From positions 45,419 to 109,418 of the forward strand of contig JADZEM010000116.1 in assembly GCA_020850535.1 (NCBI GenBank): a stretch of 64,000 nt of DNA, read 5' to 3'. The stretch comes from Chloroflexota bacterium (GTDB taxonomy: Bacteria; Chloroflexota; UBA6077; JACCZL01). Shown in pieces: positions 10,883-63,121 of this stretch. A program made the position numbers and the translations under genes. Under the pieces are notes generated by a model that did not search any database, was not told where the DNA came from, and worked only from the letters and a program-made list of their open reading frames with translations. Every line of letters begins with the position of its first letter. Position 1 is the first letter of the stretch.

Positions 10883-11064
10883 CGAAAAGCTCCAGGGCGG
10901 GGAGAGTGTGACGAATGATACGCGCCACACCCAGCACGCCTGCCGTGGGAAGGTGGTGGCGCGGTAGAATGCGAGCCGCTGACACGCAAGGGTCGCGAGC
11001 AACAGGCGCACGTGGGGCGGGATCGCCCCGCCGCACGCTCTCACCGAGGAAGGGACGGCGCACC

Positions 11065-40538: not shown

Positions 40539-40593
40539 CCCTACGGGTTCGGTCTGCCGCGCAGGCGAGAAGCCGACAGGCACCGGGCGTCGG

Positions 40594-44136: not shown

Positions 44137-44173
44137 GCGCTCCCCTCGAATCGCCAGGGTCGTCGCGGCGCGG

Positions 44174-44803: not shown

Positions 44804-44990
44804 CAGATCTCAGCCACCATCCCCACCACGTCCATCGTCTGCACGCCGGCTGGCGGCAGCGCTGCCCTGCCCCGCTCCGGACCATAATGATACGGGTCGG
44901 CGTCGCCTGCCTTTCGGTCTGTCGGGTAGAATCCGACGCTTCGGGCCGAGGATCCGCCGTCCGTCGCACCGCCGGAGGAGACCGCACCTC

Positions 44991-45897
44991 GATGCCAACC
45001 GCTGCCCCCACGCCGGCCGAGGCCGCTCCTCTGGCCGCATCACGGCTTGCCGACCGCCATCCGGTCGGCCCTGAGCACGAGGTCGTGACCCGCATTCGAC
45101 CGCCGGCCCCAGGTTTCGGCGTCGATCTGGCCGAGCTGTGGCAGTATCGACACCTGTTCGCAGCGCTCGTCTGGCGCAACGTCCGCATCGAGTTCGACGC
45201 CACCCGGCTCGGCTCGATCTGGGCTGTCGCGCGGCCGGTCCTGTTCACCCTGGTGTTCGTACTGTTCCGAGGCTTCTCGGGCGCCAACACCCGGGTTGAC
45301 CTGCCGTATGCGCTCTACGTCTTCAGTGGGCTGGTGCTCTGGACCTACTTTCTGGACGCCGCGACGTCGTCGGCGGGCGCGATCCGGGTGGACTCGGCCC
45401 TGCTGACGAAGGTCTACTATCCGCGCCTGCTGACGCCGCTGGTGCCAGTCGTCGCGGCGTTGATCTCCATCGGGATTGCCGCCGTGCCGCTCATCGGCAT
45501 GATGGTCTGGTTCGGGGTTCATCCCGGCTGGCAGCTGATCCTGCTGCCGCTGGTGCTGGTGCAGGCGATGGCCCTGTCGCTTGGCGTCGGCACCATCATC
45601 TCGTCGATGTCGATTGAGAATCGGGACTGGGAACGGGCGCTGGCCTTCATCCTGAGCGTGGGCCTGTGGATGTCCCCGGTCATCTACGCGCCGAGCATGA
45701 TCCCCGAGCCGTTCTCGACGCTCTACCACCTGAATCCGATGGTCGGCGTGCTGCTGTCGTTCCGGGCCGCCCTCTTCGACGGCTTCCCACTGCCGGCCTG
45801 GGAGTGGGGCTACTCCTGGCTCTGCACACTGGCGATCCTGGCGGTCGGCATCTGGGCGTTCCGACGCTCCGAAGCCTCGCTGGCGGACCGGCTCTGA
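44991..45897 (+). CDS. ABC-2 type polysaccharide/glycan export permease (Wzm/TagG/KpsM-like).
   Basis: 302 aa from ATG 44991. AELWQYRHLFAALVWRNVRIEFDATRLGSIWAVARP is a typical ABC-2 permease N-terminus. Six TM helices. Confidence 0.8.
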
Positions 45898-47276
45898 TGG
45901 CGCCGCAGACGCGGTCGCTGGCGATCTCGGCACGGGGGATCTCGAAGCAGTACACCCGTGGACAGGCGGGCGGCTGGTCCGTCCACGGCGGCCTGCGCGG
46001 CGCGGTCAAGGCGCTGCTCGGCCGGGCCGCGCCGAAGAAGGCGCGGGAGCCTGACACGTTCTGGGCGCTCGACGACATCACGTTTGACATCGCACGGGGC
46101 GAGCGCGTCGGCATCGTGGGGCGAAACGGCGCGGGCAAATCCACGCTGCTCAAAGTGCTCTCGCGCGTCGTCTTCCCGACCTCCGGCGAGGCCGAGATTC
46201 GTGGCCGCCTGACATCCTTGTTGGAGGTCGGGACCGGCTTCAACGAGAACCTGACCGGCCGCGAGAATGTCTACCTCAACGCTTCGATTCACGGCCTCAC
46301 GCGCGCCGAGATCGATGCCCGCTTCGACGAGATCGTGGACTTCGCCGGGGTGCGGCCCTTCCTGGACACGCCCGTCAAGCGCTATTCGAGCGGCATGCAG
46401 ATGCGGCTGGCGTTCGCGGTGGCCGCCCACCTGGACCCTGATATCCTGTTGCTGGACGAGGTGCTGGCCGTCGGCGACCTCTCGTTCCAGCAGAAGTGCC
46501 TGGAGCGGGTGGAGGGGCTGGTCAACGAGGGCCGCACGCTGGTGTTCGTGTCGCACAGCCTGGACGCGATTACCCGCTTCTGCGACCGCTGCCTGTGGAT
46601 CGACGGCGGCAAGCTGCGGATGGACGGCCGGTCCGAGCAGGTGGTCGAGGTCTACCTGGAAGAGCTGGCCGGCATCCGGTCCAGCCGCGACTGGTCGTCC
46701 GGATTGGGATTGCCGTTGTCGGGCCTCGGACGCGCGCCTGCGGCGACTGACAGCCGCCCTGGCGACGACGACGTGCGGCTCGTCGGGGCGCGGATCATCG
46801 GGACGGACGGCGACGAGCGGTCCAGCGTGCCCGTGGATGAGCCGTTCGGCATTGAAGTCACCTTCGACATCCTGCGCGAGGGCAACAACATCCAGCCTGC
46901 CCTGCACTTCAAGGGGCAGACCGACCAGATCCTGTTCGTCGTGGCCTACACGGACGCCGAGTGGCTGGAGCGCCCGCCGCCAGTCGGACGCCACGTCGCG
47001 ACGGCCTGGGTCCCAGCCCACCTGCTGAATGTCGGCATCATCTACGTTACCGTGGTGCTGCAGACGCCAGACCCGTTCCAGACCCATTGCGCCGTAGAAC
47101 GGGCCGTCTCCCTGAACGTCTTCGAGCGGTTCGGGGCGGAGGGCACGGCGCGTGGCCTCTACGCCCGTGAGTTTCCGGGGGCGGTGCGCCCACGCCTGGC
47201 CTGGGACACCCACCGGAGCGTTCCCATCGAGGATACCGCCGCGTCGGCCCCTGCCGCCGAGCCGGTGACCCCATGA
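45897..47276 (+). CDS. ABC transporter ATP-binding protein (Wzt/TagH/KpsT-like) with C-terminal extension.
   Basis: Walker A GRNGAGKST, signature YSSGMQMRLAFA, Walker B ILLLDEVLAVGD. The C-terminal domain of about 200 aa may bind substrate. Confidence 0.85.
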   Translation: MAPQTRSLAISARGISKQYTRGQAGGWSVHGGLRGAVKALLGRAAPKKAREPDTFWALDDITFDIARGERVGIVGRNGAGKSTLLKVLSRVVFPTSGEAEIRGRLTSLLEVGTGFNENLTGRENVYLNASIHGLTRAEIDARFDEIVDFAGVRPFLDTPVKRYSSGMQMRLAFAVAAHLDPDILLLDEVLAVGDLSFQQKCLERVEGLVNEGRTLVFVSHSLDAITRFCDRCLWIDGGKLRMDGRSEQVVEVYLEELAGIRSSRDWSSGLGLPLSGLGRAPAATDSRPGDDDVRLVGARIIGTDGDERSSVPVDEPFGIEVTFDILREGNNIQPALHFKGQTDQILFVVAYTDAEWLERPPPVGRHVATAWVPAHLLNVGIIYVTVVLQTPDPFQTHCAVERAVSLNVFERFGAEGTARGLYAREFPGAVRPRLAWDTHRSVPIEDTAASAPAAEPVTP

Positions 47277-48553
47277 CCGCCCGTCCGCCAGCAGCCACCA
47301 GCGACAGCGCTGCCATGCTCGCTCGGTCGGAGGCGCAGTTGCGGGTGCTCCACGAGCTGCGCGTCGAAGCGCGTCTACGGCCAGACTTCGAGGCCCACTA
47401 CGTCGGCTTCCTACGTGCCCTGCGCGAGCGCCTTCACCCGCGCGGCGTCTACGACGCTCGCACGATTCGCCTGGCGAACGGCCTGACCTTCCAGGTCGAC
47501 CTGGGCGACCGGCTCGGGTGCGACGTGTTCTACGGCTACTACGATGAACGCTTTGAGGCTGGCCTGTTCGTGGAGCTGCTGGCGGCCGGCCAGACGATGT
47601 TCGACGTCGGGGCGAACTTTGGGTACTACGCCGTTCACTGCGCGCACGCCGTTGGCGCGGCAGGCGCGGTCCACGCCTTCGAGCCAGATCCCGCCGCCGC
47701 CGCCCTCCTCCGCGAAAATGCCTGTGCGAACGGGCTGGACGGCTGGCTGACGCACCACGCGGCAGCCGTCTCGGACCACAACGGCGCAACCGAGTACCAC
47801 CTTGCGGAGGAAGCGGCGTTCAGCGGCATGACCTCGACGGGCCGCTCGGCGGTGCGCGGGGTCGTACAGGTGCCGACGCGCAGCCTGGACTCAGTAGCAG
47901 CCGAGCATGGCGTCACGGCAATCGATGCCCTGAAGATCGATGTGGAAGGCCATGAGGCCAAGGTCTTGCGCGGAGCGGCTGGCCTGCTCGAGCGGTCACC
48001 CGACCCGCTGGTCATGCTGGAAGTGAGCGCGAAAAACCTGACGGACGAGGCTCGAAGCGCGCTGACGGCGGCGCTGCGGCCGATCTTTGCCGCTGGTTTC
48101 GTCGGGCTGATCCCCGACCTGTCCTCTGGTGCTGGACTGCGCGCAGTCATCACGCCGACTGAGGCCGCCAGCCTCCCCAGCGCAAACCTTCTCCTGGTCC
48201 GCGCGGGCGGCGAACGCGAGCGGCAGCTCCGGGCAGCGGTCGCCAGGCGACGGTCGACTGCCTCGCCGCTCCTCGACGTCGAGCCGGTCGACGCCGACGC
48301 CCGCGTGCTCCGGCTGGTGGCGGGGCCCGATCCAGAGTTCATCGCCGCCGCCCTGCGGGACAAGTCGGACGCGGAGGGGCGGGCGACCACGCTCGCCGCC
48401 GAGGTCAGCGAGCTGCGCACTGAGATCGGGCGGCTACGGGCCGAGCGCGCCGCGCTGCGGGCTGAGGTGCGTCGTCTGGGCTCCACACCGGTCGGACTGG
48501 CCGTTCGCGCAGCGCTGAAGCTTGCGCGGACGGTGGTGGGCGGTCAGCGCTAG
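47273..48553 (+). CDS. FkbM-family methyltransferase with C-terminal coiled-coil.
   Basis: MFDVGANFGYYAVH...HAFEPDP...KIDVEGHE. The start overlaps the ABC ATPase stop (ATGA). Confidence 0.75.
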   Translation: MTARPPAATSDSAAMLARSEAQLRVLHELRVEARLRPDFEAHYVGFLRALRERLHPRGVYDARTIRLANGLTFQVDLGDRLGCDVFYGYYDERFEAGLFVELLAAGQTMFDVGANFGYYAVHCAHAVGAAGAVHAFEPDPAAAALLRENACANGLDGWLTHHAAAVSDHNGATEYHLAEEAAFSGMTSTGRSAVRGVVQVPTRSLDSVAAEHGVTAIDALKIDVEGHEAKVLRGAAGLLERSPDPLVMLEVSAKNLTDEARSALTAALRPIFAAGFVGLIPDLSSGAGLRAVITPTEAASLPSANLLLVRAGGERERQLRAAVARRRSTASPLLDVEPVDADARVLRLVAGPDPEFIAAALRDKSDAEGRATTLAAEVSELRTEIGRLRAERAALRAEVRRLGSTPVGLAVRAALKLARTVVGGQR

Positions 48554-48568
48554 GCCGGGGCGCACGTC

Positions 48569-49702
48569 ATGCCGAGCCGCTCACTCCGCATCCTCTACGA
48601 CCACCAGATGTTCGCGCTTCAGCGGTTCGGCGGCATCACGCGCATCTTCGTCGAGCTGGCACGGCGGCTCTCGGCGCGCGACGACTGCGAGATCTACTGG
48701 CATCGTGGGTATCACCAGGACGGCTACGACGTCTCCGACTTCCAGGCCCGCCTGGCCCGCTACTGGAGCATCGACCGGCGGCCGCCAGTCATCGGCGGTT
48801 GGCCGCGCGAACGGATCAACCGCCACGCCTTCCGCTGCTTCGCCCGCACGATCTGGGGTGGCGTGGACATCTACCACCCGTCCTACTTCGAGGCTGGCCT
48901 GCTCGACATCCCCAGGACCGGGCACGTCGCCGTGACCGTCTACGACATGATCCTTGAGCGGTTCATGGCCGATCAGCCGCGCGTCCGGGCGCAGATCGCG
49001 GGGAAGCGCCGGCTGGTCGAGCGGGCAGACCTGGTGTTCGTGATCTCGGAGCACACCCGCCGGGACGTCGTCGAGTTGCTGGGCGTCGATCCCGCGCGGA
49101 CGGTCCTCACCTACCCGGCCAGCGACCTCGCCAGCGTGCCGGCCGCATCGCTCCCTCAGGGGTTGGTCGAACGGCCCTACCTGCTCTACGTGGGTCCGCG
49201 CTCGAAGTACAAGAACTTCCCGCTGCTGCTGGAGACGTTCCGTCAGTCTGCGTGGCTGCGGCGTGAGCTTCGCGTCGTCTGCCTGGGCGGCGGACCGTTC
49301 CTGGAGCCGGAGCAGCAGTTCCTGCGCGACCACGCCCTGACGGAGTGCTTCACGCAGGTGAGCGGCGACGACCGCATCCTCAAGGCCCTCTACGAGCGGG
49401 CCGTCGCGCTGGCCTGGACGAGCCACTTCGAGGGGTTTGGCATCCCGCCGCTCGAAGCGATGGAGGTCGGCTGCCCGGTCGTCTGCGCGCCGACCTCCTC
49501 GATGCCGGAGGTTGTCGGAGACGCCGCGCTGTTCTTCGATCCGGACCGCGCCGACGAGTTGGCCGAGCGCCTCCAACAGATCGCAGAGGACACGGCGCTG
49601 CGCCGACGGCTCATCGCCGGCGGCAGGGGCCGGGCGCGGCTGTTCTCGTGGGACGCGATGACGGCGGCCACCCTCGACGGCTACCGCCGGCTGGTACACT
49701 GA
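48569..49702 (+). CDS. Glycosyltransferase family 4 (GT-B, GT1-like).
   Basis: C-terminal EX7E region EGFGIPPLEAMEVGCPVVCAPTSSMPEVVGDAALFFDP. Confidence 0.8.
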   Translation: MPSRSLRILYDHQMFALQRFGGITRIFVELARRLSARDDCEIYWHRGYHQDGYDVSDFQARLARYWSIDRRPPVIGGWPRERINRHAFRCFARTIWGGVDIYHPSYFEAGLLDIPRTGHVAVTVYDMILERFMADQPRVRAQIAGKRRLVERADLVFVISEHTRRDVVELLGVDPARTVLTYPASDLASVPAASLPQGLVERPYLLYVGPRSKYKNFPLLLETFRQSAWLRRELRVVCLGGGPFLEPEQQFLRDHALTECFTQVSGDDRILKALYERAVALAWTSHFEGFGIPPLEAMEVGCPVVCAPTSSMPEVVGDAALFFDPDRADELAERLQQIAEDTALRRRLIAGGRGRARLFSWDAMTAATLDGYRRLVH

Positions 49703-49739: not shown

Positions 49740-50648
49740 ATGACCGCTTCCCCACCATCTGGCCCCATCCGACCGCTGGTGTCGGTCGTGATTGGCAGCT
49801 ACAACCGCCGACCGTTCTTGCAGCAGGCCATCGAGACCGTGCGCGAGAACGGGGCCAACCTGAGCTACGAGACCATCGTCGTGGACGGCGGCTCGACCGA
49901 CGGCTCGGTCGGCTGGCTGGTGAAGCAGAAGGACGTGGTCACCATCGTCCAGCACAATCGCGGCGAGTTTCGCGGCCAGCCGATCCGCCGCCGAAGCTGG
50001 GGCTACTTCATGAACCTCGGGTTCAAGAGCGCCCAGGGCCACTACATCCTGATGATCAGCGACGACTGCCTGCTGGTCCCCGGAGCGATGGAACGCGGAG
50101 TCGAGCATCTCCAGCAACTTAAGGCGGCCGGACGGAAGATCGGCGGTGGCGCGTTCTACTTCCGGAACTGGCCCAACGAGCGCGACTACTACGTGCAGCG
50201 CACGCTCGGCGGCAAGCTGATGGTCAACCACGGCCTCTACACACGCGTGGCACTGGAGGCGGTCGGCTTCGTGGACGAGGACCGCTACGGCTTCTACAAG
50301 GCAGACGGCGACCTGTGCCTCAAGATGTGGGAGGCCGGCTTCGAGGTGGTGGACTGCCCCGGCGCGTACGTGGAGCACTTCGAGGGCGCGAACCGGGCCG
50401 TTCGCAAGAGCAACCGCGAGCTGCTGGCGCGGGACCGCGAAGCGTATCGTCAGCGCTGGGAGGGCATTTTCTGGGATCCAGAAGGCCCTGAGCTGCGTGA
50501 CCAGTTGACGGCCGCGTTTGACGACCCGCACCGCACGGCCAGCCGCTTCCCGAGCGACGCGCCGCCCCTGCCAAAGCGCCTGGTGCGCCGGGCCGGCTCG
50601 ACCGGCAAGCGCGCGCTCGGCCACCTGACCCGGCTGGTCAATGCCTAG
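49740..50648 (+). CDS. Glycosyltransferase family 2.
   Basis: VSVVIGSYNRRPFLQQAIETV...ETIVVDGGSTDGS is a GT-A DXD-type N-terminus. Confidence 0.8.
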   Translation: MTASPPSGPIRPLVSVVIGSYNRRPFLQQAIETVRENGANLSYETIVVDGGSTDGSVGWLVKQKDVVTIVQHNRGEFRGQPIRRRSWGYFMNLGFKSAQGHYILMISDDCLLVPGAMERGVEHLQQLKAAGRKIGGGAFYFRNWPNERDYYVQRTLGGKLMVNHGLYTRVALEAVGFVDEDRYGFYKADGDLCLKMWEAGFEVVDCPGAYVEHFEGANRAVRKSNRELLARDREAYRQRWEGIFWDPEGPELRDQLTAAFDDPHRTASRFPSDAPPLPKRLVRRAGSTGKRALGHLTRLVNA

Positions 50649-52347
50649 CGCCGCGCGACTGCTCAAGCGGCTGCTGTCACGCCCAAGCGCCCCGCAGCCC
50701 GATCCGCTCCCGTCCGGCCACATCCTGCCAGACTGGAACGCCCTGCTCGACACCGACCGCGCCCTCTGGGAGCGCGCGAAAGCTCAGGCTCAGGCCGGCC
50801 CGGGCGTGCTGCTCGCCACGAACGTCGGCGGGCACTCGCCGGCCACGGTCGTCGAGAGCGTCCTGGCCGTGGCGCTGACGCTGCGCGGCGCACGCGTCCA
50901 CACGCTCGTCTGCGACAAGGTCATGCCGGCGTGCCTGCGAGCGCAGGCGGACAACGTCCTCGATCCCGGCGTCTTCTCTCGCTACGAGCTGCCAGAGAAG
51001 CTGTGCGGCAGTTGCTACCCCATCGGCGAGCACGTTTACGGGCCGCTCGGGCTGCCGCACCACCGATTCTCGGAGCTGCTCTCGCCGGACGAGCAGCGGG
51101 CCTGCCGCGCACTGGCCGACTCGACGCCCTACGAGGCGATCCCTGGCGCCATCGTGGACGGGCTGCCCATCGGGGAGCAGGCCTACGCCGGGGCGCTCCG
51201 CTACTTCGCGCGGGGCGACCTGGACGACGAGCCGTACGGCGAGAGCGTGCTGCGCCGCTACTTCGAGGCCTCGTTGCAGGCCGCCAGCGTGACCCGCTCG
51301 CTGCTCGCCACCCGCCGATTCGAGGCCGCCTGTATGCACCACGGCATCTACGTGCCCCAGGGCGTCAGCAGCGCCGTCGCGCGGCAGCTTGGCGTGCGCG
51401 TCTCGACCTGGAACCCGGCCTACCGCAGCAACTGCTTCATCTTCAGCCTACACGACACCTACCACCACACCCTGTTGGACGAGCCGACGGAGTCGTGGGA
51501 CACGATGCCCTGGACCGCCCAGATGGAAGAGCAGATCCTGAACTACCTCAAGAGCCGCTGGTCCGGCTCGCGTGACTGGATCTGGTTCCACGACCGTCCA
51601 GACGAGGACTTTGCGAAGTACGCCGCCGAGATCGGGCTGGACCTCGGGAAGCCGATCGTCGGGATGCTCTCCAACGTCATCTGGGACGCGCAACTGCACT
51701 ACCGTGCCAACGCCTTCCCGACTATGCTCGCCTGGGTGATCGAGACGATCCGGTACTTCGAGCGGCGGCCAGACCTCCAGCTGCTGCTGCGGGTCCACCC
51801 CGCCGAGCTGCGGGGCACGGCACGCTCGCGCCAGCCGCTGGTGGACGAGATCGCGCGGGCATTCCCGACGCTCCCGCCCAACGTCTTCATCATCCCGCCA
51901 GAGTCACAGGTCTCGACCTACGCCGCGATGGCCCAGGCGAACGCCGTCATCATCTTCGGCACCAAGACCGGCGTCGAGCTGACCTCGATGGGTATTCCCG
52001 TGATCGTGGCCGGCGAGGCCTGGATTCGGAACAAGGGGCTGACCCTCGACGCCAGCTCGGCGGCCGGCTACTTCGAGATCCTCGACGGCCTGCCACTGGC
52101 CGCGCGGATGCCGGCCGAACAGGTCGCCCGCGCCCGCAAGTACGCCTACCATTTCTTCTTCCGGCGGATGGTCCCGCTGGAGTTCATGGAGGTGACCGGC
52201 GCGTGGCCGCCCTACCGCGTGGCGCTCGAATCGCTCGGCGACCTGCTGCCTGGGCGGCACGCCGGGCTGGACATCATCTGCGACGGCATCCTGAACGGCT
52301 CGCCGTTCATCTACCCGGCCGAGGAGCTGGGCGTTCATGACCGCTGA
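50641..52347 (+). CDS. Large GT-B-like protein of unassigned family, paralog A (possibly KpsC/KpsS 'capsule polysaccharide biosynthesis' type).
   Basis: 568 aa and soluble. The C-terminal half has a Rossmann-like NAVIIFGTKTGVELTSMGIPVIVAGEAW. The N-terminal half is Cys-rich: HTLVCDKVMPACLR...CGSCYP. It overlaps its neighbours by 8 and 11 nt. The family assignment is not verifiable from sequence alone. Confidence 0.5.
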   Translation: MPSAARLLKRLLSRPSAPQPDPLPSGHILPDWNALLDTDRALWERAKAQAQAGPGVLLATNVGGHSPATVVESVLAVALTLRGARVHTLVCDKVMPACLRAQADNVLDPGVFSRYELPEKLCGSCYPIGEHVYGPLGLPHHRFSELLSPDEQRACRALADSTPYEAIPGAIVDGLPIGEQAYAGALRYFARGDLDDEPYGESVLRRYFEASLQAASVTRSLLATRRFEAACMHHGIYVPQGVSSAVARQLGVRVSTWNPAYRSNCFIFSLHDTYHHTLLDEPTESWDTMPWTAQMEEQILNYLKSRWSGSRDWIWFHDRPDEDFAKYAAEIGLDLGKPIVGMLSNVIWDAQLHYRANAFPTMLAWVIETIRYFERRPDLQLLLRVHPAELRGTARSRQPLVDEIARAFPTLPPNVFIIPPESQVSTYAAMAQANAVIIFGTKTGVELTSMGIPVIVAGEAWIRNKGLTLDASSAAGYFEILDGLPLAARMPAEQVARARKYAYHFFFRRMVPLEFMEVTGAWPPYRVALESLGDLLPGRHAGLDIICDGILNGSPFIYPAEELGVHDR

Positions 52348-53152
52348 CGCCTTGCTGGATCGACTGGGCCGGCTGCCGGTCGGTCGGCTGGTGTCGCCAG
52401 CGCGCCGCCGCTGGCTGTTGAAGCTGCTGCAGCGGCGCGCGCGTCGGTACGGCTATTCGCTGGTGCCGGCCCCGCCGCCAACGGCTGGCGTGGCACAGTG
52501 GGACATCTGGACGTGGGTGCGCGCCACCTCGACCATCCGGACCGTCGTAGACATCGGCGCGAACGACGGCGTCTACGCCCGCTACCTGAACGAGTTCTTT
52601 CGCCCGGCCGCCGTGCACGCGTTCGAGCCGCTGCCCGGCTGCCAGCCGAAGCTCGCCGCGCTGAAGCGGGAGATGCCAAACGTCACGCTGCATCAACTGG
52701 CGCTCTCCGATCGCGCTGGCGAGGCGACGTTCTACAGCAACGAGTATGCGCCGGCCTCTTCGCTGCTCGAAGTGAGCGCCGTGTCCCGCCGCGCCTTCCC
52801 CGAGACCGAGCGCGCGACGGCCACCGCCGTCCAGGTGGCGCGCCTCGACGACGTGCTGCCAGCAGACTCGCTCGAACGCGACATCCTGGTCAAGATCGAC
52901 GTCCAGGGCGTCGAGGACCGGGTGATCCGGGGCGGGCGCGCGCTCTTCTCGGCGGCATCCGTCGTGCTGATCGAGATGGCCTTCGTCGCCGTCTACGAGA
53001 ACCAGCCGCTCTTCGAGGAAGTCCACACCCTGCTCGCCGGGTGCGGCCTGCGGCTGGCCGGCTTCAAGAATCAGATCGACGACGCCGAGAGCGGCCAGCC
53101 CCTCTTCGCGCACTGCCTGTACCGCCGCCCCGACCACCGAACGCCAGACTGA
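52337..53152 (+). CDS. FkbM-family methyltransferase (second copy).
   Basis: VVDIGANDGVYARYL...HAFEPLP...KIDVQGVE. Confidence 0.75.
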   Translation: MTADALLDRLGRLPVGRLVSPARRRWLLKLLQRRARRYGYSLVPAPPPTAGVAQWDIWTWVRATSTIRTVVDIGANDGVYARYLNEFFRPAAVHAFEPLPGCQPKLAALKREMPNVTLHQLALSDRAGEATFYSNEYAPASSLLEVSAVSRRAFPETERATATAVQVARLDDVLPADSLERDILVKIDVQGVEDRVIRGGRALFSAASVVLIEMAFVAVYENQPLFEEVHTLLAGCGLRLAGFKNQIDDAESGQPLFAHCLYRRPDHRTPD

Positions 53153-53340
53153 CCTGGGAGCCATCGTTGCGGCCTGCTACCGTCTTCCCCGATCGTGGCC
53201 GGTTCGGCCGGTACGTCGGCCATGTCCTATCATCCTCTGCGCGATTCCAGACCGAAAGCCGTAGGTAGACGCTCCTTGCTGGTGAACTCGCTCGATTCAG
53301 GACCGGCCTGTCGCGCGGATCGGCCGCCGCGAGGCCGCTC

Positions 53341-55059
53341 GTGAACCCGATCATCCGCCGAGCGCGGACCGCTGTCGCCCGGGCGCTGGGACGCCGACGC
53401 AAGGGTGTGCCGACAGCGCACGATCCGCGCTTCCCGGACTGGCAACAGATCCTGGCCGCCAACCGCGAGCAGTGGGACGCTGCCCGGCGGCGCGCGGCCG
53501 GCGGCCCGCCGGTGCTGGTCGCCAGCACGGTCGGCGGGTACGGCGCCGGCTCGGTGTTCGAGAGTATGCTGTCTGTGGCGCTGACCCTGCGGGGCGCGCG
53601 CGTGCACACCCTGCTCTGCGACCGCGCCCTGCCCGGCTGCCAGCGGGCCGAGTACACGGACGTGCCAGACCCGCGCGTGCTGGTGGACTACCAGTTGCCG
53701 GACCGCCTCTGCGATGGCTGTTTCGCCACCGGCCGCTACAACTTCGCGCCGCTCGGCCTGAGCGACCACCGGGTCGGGGCGCTGGCGTCGCGGGCTGAGA
53801 AACACGAGGCCCGTCGCATCGCGAACGAGACCCCCATCGGCGAGATCCGGGACTTCGCCTGGAATGGCCTGAACATCGGCGAGCACGCCTACGCTGGCGC
53901 GCTCCGCTACTTCGCGCGGGGCGACCTGGAAGCTGAGGCGCTGGGCGAGCCGGTCCTGCGCCGCTACCTGGAAGCCTCGATCCTGATGGCCGCCGCCTCA
54001 ACCCGGTTGATCCAGCAGGAAGGCATCCAGATCGCCGCGTTCAACCACGGGCTGTACGTGCCGCAGGGCGTCCTCGGGGAGGTCTGCCGGCGGCTCGGCG
54101 TGCGGGTTGCCAACTGGAACCCGGCCTACCGCACCTCCTGCTTCATCTTCAGCCACGGCGACACCTATCACCACACGCTGATGGCCGAGCCAACCGAAGC
54201 CTGGGACACGATGGCGTGGACGCCGGCGCTCGAAGCCCAGATTCAGGCGTACCTGAAGAGTCGGTGGTCGGGCTCGCGGGACTGGATCTGGTTCCACGAC
54301 GAGCCAGACGAGGATTTCGCGGCGTATGCCCGCGAGGTCGGCCTGGATCTCAAGAAGCCGATCGTTGGGCTGCTCACCAACGTGATGTGGGACGCCCAGC
54401 TGCACTACCCGGCCAACGCCTTCCCGAGCATGCTGGACTGGGTGCTCCGCACCATCGAGTGGTTCAAGGGCCGTCCCGATCTCCAGCTGCTGATTCGGGT
54501 GCATCCCGCCGAGATCCGAGGGACAGCCCGCTCGCGGCAGCCCCTGGTGCCGGAGATCGAGAAGGCGTTCCCAGACCTGCCGCCGAACGTCTTCATCATC
54601 CCGCCCGAGTCGCAGATCTCGACCTACGCCGCCGTGGCGACCGTGAACGCGGCCATCATCTACGGCACCAAGACGGGCGTCGAGCTGACCTCGTCCGGCA
54701 TCCCGACCATCGTGGCGGGCGAGGCCTGGATCCGAAACAAGGGCATCACCCTGGACGCCTCGTCCCCAGACGACTATTTCGGCATCCTCGACACGCTGCC
54801 GCTCGCGGGCCGGATGCCGCCCGAGCAGATCGAACGGGCCCGCCAGTACGCCTTTCACTTCTTCTTCCGACGGATGGTGCCGGTGCCGGCGATGGTCCCC
54901 ACCAAAGCCGTTCCGCCGTTCCGCGTCGCCATCGACTCGCTGGACGATCTGCTGCCCGGCAAGCAGCCGGGCCTGGACATCATCTGTGACGGCATCCTGC
55001 GCGGCTCGCCGTTCATCTACCCGGCCGAGACCTACGGGCTCCACGACGATGGACGGTAG
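53341..55059 (+). CDS. Large GT-B-like protein of unassigned family, paralog B.
   Basis: 572 aa, collinear with paralog A. For example, NPAYRTSCFIFSHGDTYHHTLMAEPTEAWDTMAWT versus NPAYRSNCFIFSLHDTYHHTLLDEPTESWDTMPWT. GTG start after a 189-bp gap. Confidence 0.5.
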   Translation: MNPIIRRARTAVARALGRRRKGVPTAHDPRFPDWQQILAANREQWDAARRRAAGGPPVLVASTVGGYGAGSVFESMLSVALTLRGARVHTLLCDRALPGCQRAEYTDVPDPRVLVDYQLPDRLCDGCFATGRYNFAPLGLSDHRVGALASRAEKHEARRIANETPIGEIRDFAWNGLNIGEHAYAGALRYFARGDLEAEALGEPVLRRYLEASILMAAASTRLIQQEGIQIAAFNHGLYVPQGVLGEVCRRLGVRVANWNPAYRTSCFIFSHGDTYHHTLMAEPTEAWDTMAWTPALEAQIQAYLKSRWSGSRDWIWFHDEPDEDFAAYAREVGLDLKKPIVGLLTNVMWDAQLHYPANAFPSMLDWVLRTIEWFKGRPDLQLLIRVHPAEIRGTARSRQPLVPEIEKAFPDLPPNVFIIPPESQISTYAAVATVNAAIIYGTKTGVELTSSGIPTIVAGEAWIRNKGITLDASSPDDYFGILDTLPLAGRMPPEQIERARQYAFHFFFRRMVPVPAMVPTKAVPPFRVAIDSLDDLLPGKQPGLDIICDGILRGSPFIYPAETYGLHDDGR

Positions 55060-55957
55060 GCGGCTGGCGCGTGGGGCGCGACGCGTCGTGCGACGCCTCG
55101 CGCACGAGGTCAAGGAGCAGGTCCGCCCGACCCCTCCCCCGCCCTCCCCCGTCGAGCTGTATCTCGCAGGCGGGCGCGTGCCCTGGAGCGAGGGCTACGG
55201 GCGGTATCGGCGTGAGGTGACCGTCAAGGCCCTCAACGACCCTGACCTGATGCGTCGGTTCCGCGGCGGCGAGCCGCTCCCCGAGGGCTACGGCAGCAAG
55301 CTCGACGAGCGCGTGGTTGAGTATCCGTGGGTGCTCTCGCGGCTGCCTGACGGCCCGGGCACGCTGCTCGACGCCGGCTCGACGCTCAGCTATCCGTTTA
55401 CACTGGAGCTGGCGTCCGTGGCGGCCAAGAAGCTGGTGGTGGTGACACTCGCGCCCCCCGCCCACATGGCCCACGCCGCCAACGTCTCGTACCTGTTCGA
55501 CGACCTCCGCAATCTGATGCTGCGCGACGCCGTGTTTGATACCGTGGTATGCATCAGCACGCTGGAGCACATCGGCCTGGACAACACGCAGCTCTACTCC
55601 GAGGATGCCCGCTTCGCCGAGCACAACCTGTCCGGCTACCAGCCGGCCCTGGACGAGTTGCGCCGCGTCCTGAAGCCGGGCGGCACGCTGCTGCTGACGG
55701 TGCCCTTCGGCAAAGCCGAAGACCACGGCTGGCTGCAGCAGTTCGACCGTGACGGGATCGGGCGGATCGTCGGGCGGTTCGGCGGCGCGCTGGTCAGCGA
55801 GGCGTACTTCGCGCATGGGCCGGCCGGCTGGCAGGTCACGACTGCCGAGGCCTGCGCCGACGCTCACTACTTCAACGTCCACGCCAGCAAGGAGCCGGCC
55901 CCGGACGGCGCCGCCGCCGCGCGCGCGGTGTGCTGCCTGGAGCTGGTCAAATCGTGA
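55049..55957 (+). CDS. SAM-dependent methyltransferase.
   Basis: LLDAGSTLSYPF (motif I-like) ... VLKPGGTLLLTVPFG. ATG 55049 overlaps the upstream gene by 11 nt. Confidence 0.6.
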   Translation: MDGRRLARGARRVVRRLAHEVKEQVRPTPPPPSPVELYLAGGRVPWSEGYGRYRREVTVKALNDPDLMRRFRGGEPLPEGYGSKLDERVVEYPWVLSRLPDGPGTLLDAGSTLSYPFTLELASVAAKKLVVVTLAPPAHMAHAANVSYLFDDLRNLMLRDAVFDTVVCISTLEHIGLDNTQLYSEDARFAEHNLSGYQPALDELRRVLKPGGTLLLTVPFGKAEDHGWLQQFDRDGIGRIVGRFGGALVSEAYFAHGPAGWQVTTAEACADAHYFNVHASKEPAPDGAAAARAVCCLELVKS

Positions 55958-57297
55958 GCACCCCACCGGGCGGCAGCACGGGCCAGAGTCCCCCGACGGG
56001 CCAGAGTCCGCTGACGGTGGCGATCAACGCCCAGGTGAACCCGGCCAACGCCGGCGGCGTCGAGTCAGCGCTCCAGGGGCTGATCACCTACCTCAGCGAG
56101 CTGCCGCTGGAGGAGCGCTATCTGCTGCTCTCGACGGTCAAGTACGCGCCGTCGATGGAGAAGCTGGCGGCCGGCAAGCTCCAGGTCGTCCCCTGGCCCT
56201 TCCCGCAGAAGGCGTACGCGCCATACCGCAGCATGACGCGGCGCTGGTCGCGGTGGCAGGCGCGGGCCGGCGCGCTCGGGCCGGGTGTGGACGCCCTGCA
56301 CTGGAGCTGGTGGCAGGCCCGCCGCGCGATGGCCCGCAACCCGAACGCCCGCCAGTCGGACGCCTTCCTGCACTCCCGCGGGGTCTCGGTGGTGCATTTC
56401 GCCTACGGCGTCCGCTTCGGCACCACGCTGCCGTTCCTGTACGAGCCGTGGGACTTGCAGCACCGTCACTATCCAGAGTTCTTCAAGCCGGGCGAGTGGG
56501 AGTGGCGCGACCAGCTGTACCGTGAGGGGTGCGAGCAGGCGACGCTGGTCGTCACGGCGACACGCTGGACGAAGCGCGACATCATCGAGCAGTACAAGAT
56601 CCCGGCCGAGCGGATCGCCGTGATCCCACGCGGCCCCTGGGTGACGCCGACCATGCCCGGCCCGCGCGATGTCGAGAAGGTCCGCAAGCAGTACGGGCTG
56701 CCGAGCAAGTTCGCGTTCTACCCGGCGATGAGCTTCCCGCACAAGAACCATCTGCGGCTGTTCGAGGCCCTGGCGATCCTGCGCGACCGCCACGGCCTGA
56801 CGCTGCCGCTGGTCTGCACCGGCCGCCAGTACGAACCGTACTGGCCGGAGCTGCTGGCCGGCGTCGAGCGGTTCAACCTGCAACGTCAGGTCTTCCTGCT
56901 GGAGTCGGTGCCGGCCGACACGTTGGCGGCCATCTTCAAGTCCGCGTCGCTGCTGGTGTTCCCATCGCTGTTCGAGGGGCTGGGGCTGCCAGTGATCGAA
57001 GCCCTGGAGTACGAGTTGCCGGTGGTGTCGTCGCGGGCGACCTGCCTGCCGGAGGTGGCCGGCGACGCTGCGCTCTACTTCGACGGCAGCGACGTGGATT
57101 CGATCGTCGATGCCCTGCTGCGGGCCGAACGCGATCCAGACTCGCTCAAGGCCGCCAGACGGGCCGCGCCGGCCGCCCTCGCCCGATTCTCCTGGCCGAA
57201 AGCGGCCCAGACGTTCATCGCCTGCTACCGGGCGGTGGGCGGCGCGCCACTGACGGCGGAGCAGCAAGCCCTCTATCAGGAAGCCATCGAAGCATGA
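55954..57297 (+). CDS. Glycosyltransferase family 4 (second copy).
   Basis: SLFEGLGLPVIEALEYELPVVSSRATCLPEVAGDAALYFD. GTG 55954 overlaps the upstream stop (GTGA). Confidence 0.8.
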   Translation: MSTPPGGSTGQSPPTGQSPLTVAINAQVNPANAGGVESALQGLITYLSELPLEERYLLLSTVKYAPSMEKLAAGKLQVVPWPFPQKAYAPYRSMTRRWSRWQARAGALGPGVDALHWSWWQARRAMARNPNARQSDAFLHSRGVSVVHFAYGVRFGTTLPFLYEPWDLQHRHYPEFFKPGEWEWRDQLYREGCEQATLVVTATRWTKRDIIEQYKIPAERIAVIPRGPWVTPTMPGPRDVEKVRKQYGLPSKFAFYPAMSFPHKNHLRLFEALAILRDRHGLTLPLVCTGRQYEPYWPELLAGVERFNLQRQVFLLESVPADTLAAIFKSASLLVFPSLFEGLGLPVIEALEYELPVVSSRATCLPEVAGDAALYFDGSDVDSIVDALLRAERDPDSLKAARRAAPAALARFSWPKAAQTFIACYRAVGGAPLTAEQQALYQEAIEA

Positions 57298-58244
57298 ATG
57301 CTGCGCCGTTGACGCTGTCGCCTGTCGATCCTTCTGTCAAACTCGCCGTCGTGCTTGGCACCTACAACCGCCTCGACAGTCTCAAGATCTGCATCGACAG
57401 TATCGTTGCCCAGACACGGACGCCGACCATCGTCTACGTGTCCGATGCCGGTTCCACGGATGGCACCGTCGAGTACCTGCAGTCCATCGCCTCGGATCGG
57501 CTGGTGCCGATCCTGGTCGGCAGGAAGCTCGGCCAGGCGCGCGCGTACAACGACGTCTTCATGGCGCTCACCACACCGTACGTCGTCTGGATCTCAGACG
57601 ACAACAAGATCGTGAATCACGGGCTGGACCGTGCGGTAGACATCCTCGACCACATGCCGAAGGTCGGGATGGTCGGCGTAAAGGTGAAGGATGTCGAAGG
57701 GCCGTTCACCGAAGCGCCGTACCTGGGGGCGGTGTCGTCCATCGGCATCCTGAACGTCAACCAGGGGATGCTGCGGACGCACGCGCTCCAGCAGGTCGGC
57801 GGCTTCAGCGAGCGCTTCCGCGACTACGGCATCGACCCTGACCTGACGGCGAAGATCCTGTTCGATGGCTGGGACGTGGCCTACACGAAGGCCGTCGGCA
57901 TCCACCACTACCGGGCCTGGGCAGACGGCTCGGCGGCCAGCGGGGAGCAGCGCGCCCGCCAGCTTGGCTACGTCAACCTCTACGCCGAGAAGTGGGGCCA
58001 GTACGCCCCGCCCGATCTGCTCTGGAAGGCGCGCAAGAAGGCCTGGGGCGCGTTCCAGAAGGCGACCGGCCTGCGGATCAACTCGTCACGCACGATCCTG
58101 GGCCTGAACGGCCGCGACTGGTGCAACCTACTGACGGGGCGCTACATCTGCCTGCTGGACGCCCTCCAGAACCGGCGCCGGCCGTACCACCTGCTCCAGC
58201 GAGCGCCCCGCTGGAGCCGCCCGCTGCCGCCCGACCCTGCCTGA
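57294..58244 (+). CDS. Glycosyltransferase family 2 (second copy).
   Basis: LAVVLGTYNRLDSLKICIDSIVAQTRTPTIVYVSDAGSTDGT. ATG 57294 overlaps the upstream stop (ATGA). Confidence 0.75.
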   Translation: MNAAPLTLSPVDPSVKLAVVLGTYNRLDSLKICIDSIVAQTRTPTIVYVSDAGSTDGTVEYLQSIASDRLVPILVGRKLGQARAYNDVFMALTTPYVVWISDDNKIVNHGLDRAVDILDHMPKVGMVGVKVKDVEGPFTEAPYLGAVSSIGILNVNQGMLRTHALQQVGGFSERFRDYGIDPDLTAKILFDGWDVAYTKAVGIHHYRAWADGSAASGEQRARQLGYVNLYAEKWGQYAPPDLLWKARKKAWGAFQKATGLRINSSRTILGLNGRDWCNLLTGRYICLLDALQNRRRPYHLLQRAPRWSRPLPPDPA

Positions 58245-61660: not shown

Positions 61661-61720
61661 GCGGATGGTTCCTCAGAATGGGCGCAGAATGAGTGGGCCA
61701 ACCGGTGGCCCCGAGTGAGA

Positions 61721-62488: not shown

Positions 62489-62527
62489 AGTCGTCCCCTC
62501 CGGCGAAGGAGTGTACCAGAGGAGTTA

Positions 62528-63058: not shown

Positions 63059-63121
63059 CGCGACACTCCCTCGTGCAGCAGATCGGCACGATGCACACGC
63101 GTCGGGGACCGAAAGCCCCGC

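What the first reader, a model, noticed from the sequence alone, without database searches (positions are those of the whole stretch)
50641..55059. Two paralogous 570-aa soluble GT-B-like proteins of unassigned family
The proteins at 50641-52347 and 53341-55059 are collinear over their full length and about half identical by eye. Both have a Cys-rich N-terminal half (HTLVCDKVMPACLR, CGSCYP / CDGCFATGRY) and a Rossmann-like C-terminal half (FGTKTGVELTS.GIP.IVAGEAWIRNKG). I cannot place them confidently in a known CAZy family from sequence alone. They resemble KpsC/KpsS 'Capsule_synth' beta-Kdo transferases in size and context (a CMP-sugar synthetase and a KpsMT-like exporter are nearby), but this is an inference. 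If correct, it implies a capsule-like glycolipid pathway in a non-proteobacterial lineage. If not, they may be a new glycosyltransferase family.
Basis: inference. Interest (0 to 1): 0.6.

Follow-up and report, generated by a model that had tools for sequence, protein, structure and literature searches.

The report
Paired KpsC-like ulosonic-acid glycosyltransferase paralogues
Two neighbouring genes in a Chloroflexi polysaccharide operon encode very likely sugar-acid transferases that are distant relatives of the capsule enzymes KpsC/KpsS, from a large uncharacterised family that travels across many bacterial phyla with its own unexplained pathway for making an activated sugar acid.

Summary
ORFs 50641-52347 (568 aa, "A") and 53341-55059 (572 aa, "B") are collinear paralogues, 64% identical, with no membrane segment.

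The KpsC/KpsS guess is right for fold and catalytic motifs.
- Profile alignments to E. coli KpsS and KpsC place an invariant Asp on the catalytic nucleophile and an invariant His-Pro on the CMP-binding HP motif.

They are not ordinary members.
- The Kdo-carboxylate-binding Gln is always Asn/Ser/Thr (NxxWD).
- The KpsC/WbbB base position holds no Glu.
- A helical insert carries four nearly invariant Cys.
- Neither protein reaches Pfam's Capsule_synth threshold.

The family has about 4,000 clusters at 50% identity and spans at least ten phyla. In 40 of 52 loci it lies within 10 kb of a conserved NeuB-like / SDR / PseF-like CMP-transferase / transketolase cassette, which is partly present in the window.

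Best reading: retaining CMP-ulosonic-acid transferases that decorate a methylated glycan exported by Wzm/Wzt. The donor is probably not Kdo, and a KpsMT-type glycolipid capsule is not supported. This is a new variant of a known kind, and function is inferred.

The parts
50641..52347 (+). Paralogue A, 568 aa: KpsC/KpsS-like modified GT-B protein, a putative retaining CMP-ulosonic-acid transferase
53341..55059 (+). Paralogue B, 572 aa: same family, 64% identical to A
50911..51015 (+). A: Cys91-x6-Cys98 ... Cys122-x2-Cys125 cluster at the base of a helical insert between N-domain strands 2 and 3; putative structural Zn site
   Evidence: The four Cys are invariant in 47 close relatives and present in 71-73 of 74 diverse relatives. 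They are kept in a 24%-identical Legionella homologue. Metal binding is inferred, not tested.
51673..51687 (+). A: Asn345-Val-Ile-Trp-Asp349, the counterpart of the QxxxD motif; Asp349 is the predicted catalytic nucleophile
   Evidence: hhalign puts N345/D349 on KpsC Q156/D160 and on KpsS QVYND. D349 is present in 73 of 74 relatives. Position 345 is N in 69, S in 4, T in 1 and never Q. The motif follows the first strand of the C-terminal Rossmann domain.
51796..51801 (+). A: His386-Pro387, the HP motif (CMP phosphate binding and leaving-group protonation in relatives)
   Evidence: Aligned with KpsC 'KVHPD' and KpsS 'KHHPMD'. H386 is present in 73 of 74 and P387 in 74 of 74 relatives.
53617..53721 (+). 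B: Cys93, Cys100, Cys124, Cys127 cluster
54379..54393 (+). B: Asn347-Val-Met-Trp-Asp351 motif
54502..54507 (+). B: His388-Pro389 (HP motif)
44887..45897 (+). Wzm-type ABC-2 permease, first gene of the operon
   Evidence: Pfam ABC2_membrane, E 2.6e-8.
45897..47276 (+). Wzt-type ATPase with a C-terminal extension (weak Wzt_C match)
   Evidence: Pfam ABC_tran E 2e-23; Wzt_C E 3e-4, 21 bits, below the cut-off. NCBIfam best hits are TagH/galactan Wzt-like. Start codon refined.
47273..48553 (+). FkbM-family methyltransferase 1
48569..49702 (+). GT4 glycosyltransferase a
49740..50648 (+). GT2 glycosyltransferase a; overlaps the start of A by 8 nt
52337..53152 (+). FkbM-family methyltransferase 2, between A and B; overlaps the end of A by 11 nt
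55049..55957 (+). Class I SAM methyltransferase (Methyltransf_11) immediately after B
   Evidence: The same Fam-MT11-GT4 order is seen in L086.
55930..57297 (+). GT4 glycosyltransferase b
57294..58244 (+). GT2 glycosyltransferase b, last gene of the operon
59744..61660 (-). Short-type transketolase-like ThDP enzyme, part of the donor-sugar cassette
   Evidence: Pfam and NCBIfam. Closest PDB sequences are human-type and split transketolases. Its homologue lies directly upstream of the family gene in 26 of the other 84 family ORFs examined.
61721..62488 (-). PseF-like (NeuA/KdsB superfamily) cytidylyltransferase, the predicted CMP-ulosonic-acid synthetase
   Evidence: CTP_transf_3. NCBIfam PseF full length, 136 bits, below the cut-off of 206; KdsB models match only the first ~70 residues.
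63122..63934 (-). SDR oxidoreductase of the cassette
   Evidence: It co-occurs with the family in 26 of 54 loci.

Best explanation
A and B are cytoplasmic glycosyltransferases with no membrane segment. They belong to the KpsC/KpsS/WbbB-like class of retaining ulosonic-acid transferases, which have a modified GT-B fold.

Proposed mechanism, by analogy with KpsC and WbbB:
1. The C-terminal Rossmann domain binds a CMP-activated 2-ulosonic acid.
2. His386 of the HP motif assists departure of CMP.
3. Asp349 of the NxxWD motif attacks the anomeric carbon and forms a covalent sugar-enzyme adduct.
4. A base in the enlarged N-terminal domain, not yet identified, activates an acceptor hydroxyl. The sugar is transferred with net retention.

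The donor is most likely not Kdo. It is more likely the product of the conserved cassette that travels with the family: a NeuB-like synthase, an SDR, a PseF-like CMP-transferase and a transketolase, sometimes with a KdsC-like phosphatase and an aldehyde dehydrogenase. The window shows the SDR, the CMP-transferase and the transketolase on the opposite strand.

The acceptor is a glycan built by the operon's two GT4 and two GT2 enzymes, O-methylated by three methyltransferases and exported by Wzm/Wzt. A and B keep a nearly common donor half (76% identical) but differ in the acceptor half (58% overall, 46% over residues 91-230). They would therefore add the same sugar in two different linkages or to two different acceptors, as the two modules of KpsC do.

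Four conserved Cys probably hold a structural zinc in the helical insert.

Shown here: paralogy, fold, motif conservation, gene linkage. Inferred: donor identity, retention of configuration, acceptor, zinc binding.
For: Fold.
- Foldseek also ranks KpsC first.

Sequence.
- hhalign of a 74-sequence family profile against E. coli KpsS gives 91.8% probability, E 7e-7, over 246 columns. Against KpsC-N it gives 82.6%, E 1e-5.
- 49 of 74 relatives hit Pfam Capsule_synth, best E 3e-10.

Motifs.
- D349 aligns to the proven nucleophile D160 of KpsC, and HP aligns to HP (PMC10148158). Conservation is 73-74 of 74.
- Both motifs sit after strands 1 and 2 of the C-terminal Rossmann domain. This is the domain where PMC12887879 places them.

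Donor linkage.
- Of 52 loci of at least 15 kb from at least ten phyla, 40 have a NeuB-like, PseF-like or transketolase gene within 10 kb. 26 have at least two of them, and 18 have all three.
- 26 of the other 84 family ORFs lie directly downstream of the transketolase gene on the same strand.
- Cassette proteins are 56-64% identical across phyla, like the family itself (about 55%). Neighbouring GT4, GT2a and Wzm proteins are about 30% identical.
- 24%-identical homologues in cultured Legionella adelaidensis and Azospirillum thermophilum also lie in clusters with an acylneuraminate cytidylyltransferase or with neuB.

Other context.
- Family members occur fused to GT2 and methyltransferase domains, which mirrors the operon.
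- A terminal ulosonic-acid cap read by a Wzt carbohydrate-binding module has a precedent in WbbB (PMC9587256).
Against: - No biochemical data exist for any member that I could find.
- A and B do not themselves reach Pfam's Capsule_synth threshold, and no PDB sequence is detectable by HMM.
- The Gln of QxxxD, described as invariant and as the Kdo-carboxylate ligand, is Asn here.
- The Glu base position of KpsC/WbbB aligns with a non-conserved Asn/Pro. The second half-reaction therefore cannot be mapped.
The spatial arrangement of D349, H386 and the four Cys was not checked.
- NeuB is not visible inside the window.
- The cassette's product is unknown, and the roles of the transketolase and the SDR are unexplained.
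- 12 of 52 loci show no NeuB-like, PseF-like or transketolase gene within 10 kb. 9 of these show neither any cassette gene nor a Wzm/Wzt gene.
Confidence: 0.62

Rival explanations
1. They are genuine beta-Kdo transferases, functional equivalents of KpsC/KpsS. They would build a poly-Kdo linker on a lipid anchor for a capsule-like glycolipid.
For: The best structural matches are KpsC modules. Some family members hit Capsule_synth. The nucleophile Asp and the HP motif are conserved. Two paralogues recall the two Kdo-transferase modules of KpsC. An ABC-2 exporter and a cytidylyltransferase are nearby.
Against: - The Gln that binds the Kdo carboxylate is never present in 74 relatives.
- The neighbouring cytidylyltransferase matches PseF over its full length and KdsB only over about 70 residues.
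- No KdsA, KpsF, KpsE or KpsD-type gene appeared among the operon ORFs scanned.
- The exporter is Wzm/Wzt-like.
- The conserved partner across phyla is a NeuB-based cassette, not the Kdo pathway.
- The family also occurs in Chloroflexota. From general knowledge, not tested here, this phylum is thought to lack LPS and Kdo.
Confidence: 0.1
2. They are not transferases but GT-B-fold enzymes of the sugar pathway itself. Examples would be a hydrolysing 2-epimerase (NeuC-like) or a nucleotide-sugar hydrolase or modifier that supplies the aldose for the NeuB-like synthase.
Against: - KpsC and WbbB score higher and align over both domains.
- The conserved motifs are those of CMP-dependent transferases.
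- Two or three paralogues per cluster are interleaved with GT2, GT4 and methyltransferase genes.
- Fusions are to GT2 and methyltransferase domains.
- Divergence between A and B is concentrated in the N-terminal, acceptor-side half.
Confidence: 0.1
3. They are phosphotransferase-type polymerases (TagF-like or Stealth-like) that use CDP-alditol or UDP-hexose donors to make a teichoic-acid-like or phosphoglycan polymer.
Against: There is no Pfam hit to Glyphos_transf or to Stealth models at E <= 1. The fold scores are clearly below KpsC/WbbB. The neighbouring cytidylyltransferase is of the NeuA/PseF type, not TagD/TarI.
Confidence: 0.05
4. One or both paralogues are catalytically inactive scaffolds or chain-length regulators of the assembly complex.
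For: Paralogue pairs in glycan assembly sometimes include inactive partners (general knowledge). No activity data exist.
Against: Both A and B keep every nearly invariant family residue, including D349/D351, H386-P387/H388-P389, E446/E448 and the four Cys.
Confidence: 0.04

Closest known systems
KpsC and KpsS (CAZy GT107; Pfam PF05159 Capsule_synth), retaining beta-Kdo transferases of group 2/3 capsule linker synthesis
   Same: - Significant profile alignment.
- The nucleophile Asp follows C-domain strand 1 and the HP motif follows strand 2.
- Conserved Glu in the nucleotide-binding 'G-x-E' helix.
- A cytidylyltransferase and an ABC-2 exporter are nearby.
- Paired catalytic units: two modules in KpsC, two genes here.
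   Different: - About 12-15% identity.
- Asn replaces the carboxylate-binding Gln.
- No Glu at the KpsC E66 position.
- The N-terminal half is roughly twice as large, with a ~135-residue helical insert carrying a Cys4 cluster.
- No C-terminal membrane anchor.
- The partner pathway is NeuB/PseF-like/transketolase, not KdsA/KdsB/KpsF.
- The exporter is Wzm/Wzt rather than KpsMTED.
- Found in at least ten phyla, including Chloroflexota and Cyanobacteria.
WbbB N-terminal domain (CAZy GT99), the terminal beta-Kdo capping enzyme of Raoultella terrigena / Klebsiella O12 O-antigen
   Different: WbbB is a domain of a trifunctional membrane-anchored polymerase. It has QxxxD and Glu158, and its donor is CMP-Kdo. 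Whether A or B cap the chain or add in-chain residues is unknown.
KpsS1 of Acinetobacter baumannii (GT118, retaining pseudaminic-acid transferase) and KrkA (GT140, K13 capsule Kdo transferase)
   Different: There is no detectable sequence relationship here. Both keep QxxxD according to the paper. No GT118 structure appeared in the searches, and this family was not compared directly.
NulO (sialic/legionaminic/pseudaminic/Kdn) biosynthesis modules NeuB-NeuA(-KdsC-like phosphatase)
   Same: The cassette linked to the family contains a NeuB/NnaB-like synthase (291 bits), a KdsC/Kdn-9-P-phosphatase-like HAD enzyme and a PseF-like cytidylyltransferase.
   Different: All score below the equivalog cut-offs. 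The cassette lacks the dehydratase, aminotransferase, acetyltransferase and epimerase genes of the Pse, Leg and Neu pathways. It carries instead an SDR, often an aldehyde dehydrogenase, and a transketolase-like enzyme. I found no described counterpart.

Membership tests
Pfam PF05159 Capsule_synth / CAZy GT107 (KpsC, KpsS) | Sequence match to the family model above its curated threshold | tested here: not met
   A scores 16.1 bits, E 0.008, against a cut-off of 20, and B has no hit. Relatives do pass: P0123 scores 32.3 bits, and 49 of 74 relatives hit at E <= 0.01. The family is therefore a divergent branch of the superfamily, but A and B are not members by the curated rule.
Pfam PF05159 Capsule_synth / CAZy GT107 (KpsC, KpsS) | Modified GT-B architecture with global structural resemblance to KpsC | tested here: met
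   [not shown]
Retaining ulosonic-acid transferases (GT99/GT107/GT118/GT140) | [quoted passage not shown] | tested here: met
   D349 (A) and D351 (B) align with KpsC D160 and with the KpsS motif Asp. The Asp is conserved in 73 of 74 relatives. Its catalytic role is inferred.
Retaining ulosonic-acid transferases (GT99/GT107/GT118/GT140) | Gln of QxxxD that binds the Kdo C1 carboxylate (called invariant in PMC9587256 and PMC12887879) | tested here: not met
   Position 345 is Asn in 69, Ser in 4 and Thr in 1 of 74 relatives. It is never Gln.
Retaining ulosonic-acid transferases (GT99/GT107/GT118/GT140) | HP motif (CMP phosphate binding) | tested here: met
   H386-P387 (A) and H388-P389 (B) align to KpsC KVHP and KpsS HHP. 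They are conserved in 73 and 74 of 74 relatives.
GT99/GT107 | General-base Glu at the KpsC E66 / WbbB E158 position | tested here: not met
   The hhalign alignment to KpsS places 'FEEGY' on W257-N258-P259-A260-Y261. Position 258 is variable: N 27, G 14, H 7, E 4. A base elsewhere, as in GT140 and GT118, is possible. Conserved candidates are H275, E281 and D312. This was not resolved.
KpsC/KpsS capsule system | CMP-Kdo supply (KdsA/KdsB/KpsF) and the KpsMTED export machinery in the locus | tested here: not met
   The operon and flanking ORFs scanned contain Wzm, Wzt, FkbM x2, GT4 x2, GT2 x2, MT11, a transketolase, a PseF-like gene and an SDR. None is of the DAHP_synth_1, SIS/CBS, Poly_export or Wzz type.
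Retaining ulosonic-acid transferases | Covalent Asp-sugar adduct and net retention of anomeric configuration | not testable with these tools
   This needs intact-protein mass spectrometry of the wild type and of D349N/C variants with the CMP-sugar, plus NMR of the product.
   [not shown]
Stealth hexose-1-phosphate transferases | Match to the Stealth CR1-CR4 models | tested here: not met
   No Stealth hit at E <= 1 in Pfam.
TagF-like CDP-glycerol/ribitol phosphotransferases | Glyphos_transf sequence match and closest fold | tested here: not met
   [not shown]
Structural zinc site | Four Cys ligands close in space; bound metal | not tested
   Only sequence conservation was shown: a C-x6-C...C-x2-C pattern, 96-99% conserved.

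The most novel reading that the evidence does not exclude
A and B represent a new CAZy-level family of retaining ulosonic-acid transferases. Its signature is NxxWD, R-x-HPAE and a Cys4 helical insert, and it has about 4,000 clusters at 50% identity. Its donor would be a so-far undescribed CMP-activated ulosonic acid, made by a NeuB-like / SDR / (ALDH) / PseF-like / transketolase cassette. Transferase and cassette would have spread together by horizontal transfer through at least ten phyla, including Chloroflexota, Cyanobacteria, Acidobacteriota, Gemmatimonadota, Planctomycetota, Verrucomicrobiota and Proteobacteria. That would imply a widespread, unrecognised acidic sugar on environmental bacterial surfaces.
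Probability: 0.4. Interest if true: 0.7.

Novelty: new variant of a known kind. Interest (0 to 1): 0.55.

Why it matters
Retaining ulosonic-acid transferases are a small, recently recognised class: GT99, GT107, GT118 and GT140. They use an unusual covalent double-displacement mechanism, and known examples come almost only from proteobacterial pathogens.

This family would extend the class to thousands of environmental bacteria, including phyla without classical LPS or capsules. It would also add a variant active-site motif (Asn for the carboxylate-binding Gln) and a new metal-binding insert.

Its tight linkage to an unexplained cassette containing a NeuB-like synthase and a transketolase gives a concrete, testable route to a possibly new activated sugar acid. 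It also gives a marker gene for finding such glycans in genomes.

For annotation, the current label 'capsule biosynthesis protein' could become a specific, testable function.

Tried and rejected
Searches and tools that gave nothing:
- Sequence searches of the PDB with A alone and with the family profile found nothing meaningful. The best hits were a DUF4292 protein at E 0.04-0.3 and TetR.
- NCBIfam gave only a 10-bit hit to TIGR04396.
- The afdb50 fold library was unavailable.
This biases the 80 loci towards close relatives that match two peptide patterns.
- The NCBI contig of the window could not be retrieved through P0001 or P0050. I could not see whether NeuB lies just beyond base 64000.
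- Literature searches for the cassette (NeuB + transketolase + cytidylyltransferase + ALDH; nonulosonic + transketolase) returned nothing. Searches for slr2115 found no functional study.

Ideas considered and dropped:
- That the cassette makes a 3-deoxy-2-ulosaric (dicarboxylic, Dha-like) acid, because the ALDH resembles 2-ketoglutarate-semialdehyde dehydrogenase. I dropped this as a general claim. The ALDH and the phosphatase are missing from several cassettes, including the visible part of the window's and L086's, and the 25 best-ranked of the 78 papers that mention ulosaric acids all concerned plants, algae or gut-bacterial pectin degradation.
- A recent segmental duplication of a four-gene block. 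Only A and B are close (64%). GT4a/b, GT2a/b and FkbM1/2 are 28-29% identical.

Correction to my own gene model:
- ORF 44135-44887 (+), which I first took as the operon's first gene, is a shadow ORF. The real gene is a DSP-phosphatase-like ORF on the other strand.

Full report
**1. Observation**

The window is 70% GC. By an exact protein match it comes from a Chloroflexi metagenome-assembled genome: P0001 is 100% identical, on a 110,833-bp contig.

ORF A (50641-52347, 568 aa) and ORF B (53341-55059, 572 aa) are on the + strand. Both have the GC3 signature of real genes, 0.92 and 0.90. They are collinear and 64% identical (76% similar) over 547 residues with two gaps, E = 0. Neither protein has a hydrophobic segment long enough for a membrane helix.

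The public record's version of A is 492 aa. It lacks 76 N-terminal residues that are conserved in homologues.

**2. Surroundings**

A and B sit in a tightly packed + strand operon. Gaps or overlaps run from -28 to +37 nt, except for 188 nt before B. The gene order is:
- Wzm (ABC-2 permease)
- Wzt (ATPase with a weak Wzt_C-like tail)
- FkbM methyltransferase
- GT4
- GT2
- A
- FkbM methyltransferase
- B
- Methyltransf_11
- GT4
- GT2

The ORF I first placed at the head of the operon (44135-44887) is a shadow of a DSP-phosphatase-like gene on the other strand.

Downstream, on the - strand and converging on the operon, lie an SDR (63125-63934), a Nudix-like ORF, a PseF-like cytidylyltransferase (61724-62488) and a 638-aa short-type transketolase (59747-61660).

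Only A and B are close paralogues. The two GT4s, the two GT2s and the two FkbMs are 28-29% identical.

**3. The family**

A has more than 3,800 relatives among the candidates scored in the 5.8-billion-protein collection. In the library clustered at 50% identity it has 4,181 cluster representatives at E <= 1e-3, of which 758 are at E <= 1e-30.

A scan of one genome per GTDB species with two peptide patterns gave 439 confirmed loci. They come from Chloroflexota, Cyanobacteria (Moorena, Gomphosphaeria, Cyanosarcina, Hydrococcus), Acidobacteriota, Gemmatimonadota, Planctomycetota, Verrucomicrobiota, Nitrospirota, Armatimonadota, Desulfobacterota and Alpha-, Beta- and Gammaproteobacteria. Identity between phyla is still about 55%, which is unusually high.

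In a 74-sequence alignment reaching down to 29% identity, the nearly invariant positions are as follows:
- C91, C98, C122, C125
- R187
- H234, G235, Y237
- Y261
- D312
- N345, W348, D349
- R384, H386, P387, E389
- Y427
- E446
- K465

Sources call the proteins 'capsule biosynthesis protein' or 'hypothetical protein'. I found no experimental work on any member.

**4. Fold and homology**

AlphaFold2 models are confident: A has pLDDT 88.9 and pTM 0.88; B has pLDDT 90.0 and pTM 0.89. Both show two alpha/beta domains. An all-helical insert of about 135 residues lies between strands 2 and 3 of the N-terminal domain, and there is a C-terminal extension.

| Search | Model A | Model B |
|---|---|---|

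By sequence, the family profile aligns with E. coli CFT073 KpsS at 91.8% probability (E 7e-7, 246 columns) and with the N-terminal module of KpsC at 82.6% (E 1e-5). 49 of 74 relatives hit Pfam Capsule_synth at E <= 0.01. A itself is below the threshold and B gives nothing.

Neither is met.

**5. Active-site comparison**

The literature defines the class by three features (PMC10148158; PMC9587256; PMC12887879):
- a QxxxD motif, whose Asp forms the covalent sugar adduct and whose Gln binds the Kdo carboxylate;
- a general-base Glu in the N-terminal part, whose location differs between families.

In the alignments, family N345-x3-D349 falls on KpsC Q156-x3-D160 and on KpsS 'QVYND'. H386-P387 falls on the HP motif. 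The Asp and the HP motif are present in 73-74 of 74 sequences, and in both A and B. The Gln is never present: the position is N in 69, S in 4 and T in 1.

The position aligned with the KpsC/KpsS base ('LEDGF' / 'FEEGY') is W-N-P-A-Y and is not conserved. The machinery for the first half-reaction is therefore conserved, with one systematic change at the carboxylate ligand. The base for the second half-reaction cannot be assigned. I could not inspect model coordinates, so these are alignment-level statements.

**6. Which donor?**

I compared the window's neighbours, and those of locus L003, against 52-54 loci of at least 15 kb.

| Gene type within +/-10 kb of the family gene | Loci (of 54) |
|---|---|
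| NeuB-like synthase | 31 |
| Aldehyde dehydrogenase | 31 |
| Transketolase-like | 27 |
| PseF-like cytidylyltransferase | 26 |
| SDR | 26 |
| KdsC-like phosphatase | 17 |

After removing duplicate loci, 40 of 52 have at least one of NeuB, PseF-like or transketolase. 26 have at least two, and 18 have all three.

The usual order is NeuB - (KdsC-like) - SDR - (ALDH) - cytidylyltransferase - transketolase - family gene. 26 of the other 84 family ORFs lie directly downstream of the transketolase on the same strand.

Cassette proteins are 56-64% identical across phyla. The accompanying GT4, GT2a and Wzm proteins are about 30% identical. The transferase and the cassette therefore behave as one conserved module inside otherwise variable glycan clusters.

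NCBIfam scores for one cassette (L015) are all below the equivalog cut-offs:

| Model | Score (bits) | Cut-off (bits) |
|---|---|---|
| NeuB_NnaB | 291 | 400 |
| KdsC | 124 | 208 |
| PseF | 122 | 206 |
| Transketolase | 395 | 488 |

The product is therefore not assignable to Neu, Pse, Leg, Kdn or Kdo.

Two 24%-identical homologues come from cultured bacteria. Both are again in ulosonic-acid contexts:
- In Legionella adelaidensis the gene lies three genes after an acylneuraminate cytidylyltransferase, in a cluster with Wzz and an O-antigen ligase. This homologue keeps the Cys4 cluster, NxxWD and HPAE.
- In Azospirillum thermophilum it lies near neuB and acetamidino-forming genes.

The window itself shows the SDR, the cytidylyltransferase and the transketolase. 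NeuB may lie beyond base 64000, but I could not retrieve the rest of the contig.

**7. A versus B**

In a clustering of 86 family sequences, A and B group with other Chloroflexota proteins. A-type orthologues reach 72% identity and B-type orthologues 78-79%. One MAG carries three copies. The duplication is therefore old within a Chloroflexota lineage. Two copies within one cluster recur elsewhere (L009, L022, L076, and the Cyanosarcina and Anaerolineales loci).

| Region of A (residues) | Identity between A and B |
|---|---|
| 339-568 (donor half) | 76% |
| 55-338 | 58% |
| 91-230 | 46% |

The pattern fits a shared donor with different acceptors or linkages. This is an inference.

**8. Most likely mechanism**

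- A CMP-activated ulosonic acid is made by the cassette.
- A and B transfer it to a glycan that is assembled in the cytoplasm by the GT4 and GT2 enzymes.
- Transfer uses a KpsC/WbbB-type double displacement: HP-assisted departure of CMP, a covalent adduct on Asp349 (Asp351 in B), then attack by an acceptor hydroxyl, giving net retention.
- The FkbM and class I methyltransferases O-methylate the polymer.
- Wzm/Wzt exports it. The Wzt tail may read a terminal cap, as in the WbbB system (PMC9587256).

I give this 0.62. Fold, motifs, paralogy and gene linkage are shown. Donor, stereochemistry, acceptor and zinc are inferred.

**9. Rivals**

- True Kdo transferases building a KpsC/S-type lipid linker: 0.10. 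Against this are the missing Gln, the PseF-like rather than KdsB-like synthetase, the absence of Kdo or KpsED genes, and the NeuB linkage.
- A pathway enzyme rather than a transferase: 0.10.
- TagF- or Stealth-like phosphotransferases: 0.05.
- Inactive scaffolds: 0.04.

**10. Novelty and verdict**

This is not a new kind of system. It belongs to the known superfamily of KpsC/KpsS/WbbB-like transferases, and databases already label it loosely as capsule-related.

It is nevertheless a distinct, very large and uncharacterised branch. It has a variant catalytic motif, a Cys4 insert and a dedicated, undescribed donor cassette, and it occurs far outside the pathogens where the class was defined. I rate it 'new variant of a known kind', interest 0.55.

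The most novel reading not excluded is a new CAZy-level family transferring a new sugar acid: probability about 0.4, interest 0.7 if true.

Noticed in passing
window 59744-63934 (- strand); loci L015 3117-9879, L016, L026, L027, L032, L039, L076, L003 17268-21728: A conserved cassette lies next to the 570-aa family in many phyla. It contains a NeuB-like synthase, a KdsC-like phosphatase, an SDR, an aldehyde dehydrogenase (2-ketoglutarate-semialdehyde-DH-like), a PseF-like cytidylyltransferase and a short-type transketolase. All score below the NCBIfam equivalog cut-offs. The product is unknown and no paper was found. The window shows only the SDR, a Nudix-like ORF, the cytidylyltransferase and the transketolase.
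   Followed up: partly
window 44135-44887 (+) / 44174-44803 (-): The 250-aa + strand ORF at the head of the operon is a shadow ORF with an Arg/Ala-rich, nonsense-like translation. The real gene is on the - strand and encodes a 209-aa dual-specificity-phosphatase-like protein (Pfam DSPc, E 2e-11), divergent from wzm.
   Followed up: yes
window 7111-8919 (-), 11524-13872 (+), 37603-39294 (-), 39072-40628 (-): Four paralogous PMT_2-type (GT-C, ArnT/PMT-like) membrane glycosyltransferases, one of them fused to NHL repeats. This suggests extensive glycosylation on the outer face using polyprenyl-phosphate sugars.
   Followed up: no
window 50641-50868: The public NCBI protein for A (492 aa) starts 76 residues downstream of the ATG at 50641. 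It omits an N-terminal region that is conserved in homologues (W32, W43, G53, E72).
   Followed up: partly
window 62528-63058 (-): A Nudix-hydrolase-like ORF (176 aa) sits between the SDR and the cytidylyltransferase of the cassette. This is the position occupied in other loci by the aldehyde dehydrogenase.
   Followed up: no
proteins P0122, P0123, P0140, P0223, P0249, P0134; locus L086 8288-9994: Family members occur fused to GT2, Methyltransf_11/23, GSCFA and TPR domains. In L086 the Wzt ATPase next to the family gene is itself fused to a GT2 domain.
   Followed up: partly
L087 2573-4204 (Legionella adelaidensis NZ_LR134429.1) and L089 9947-11536 (Azospirillum thermophilum NZ_CP029359.1): 24%-identical homologues annotated 'hypothetical protein' in cultured bacteria lie in clusters with an acylneuraminate cytidylyltransferase or with neuB. 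The Legionella record is labelled a plasmid but carries housekeeping genes (tilS, rnhB, accA).
   Followed up: partly
literature lead (PMC4594306): Synechocystis PCC 6803 slr2115 is listed as that strain's only Capsule_synth protein. It lies in a cluster with slr2107/slr2108 (Wzm/Wzt), slr2111 (KpsF-like) and slr2122 (CTP_transf_3). I did not check whether it belongs to this family; if it does, a genetically tractable model exists.
   Followed up: no
window 9650-11044 (-) and 43006-44271 (-): Two PALP-family (PLP-dependent, cysteine/threonine-synthase-like) genes with N-terminal extensions. The second lies just upstream of the glycan operon region.
   Followed up: no
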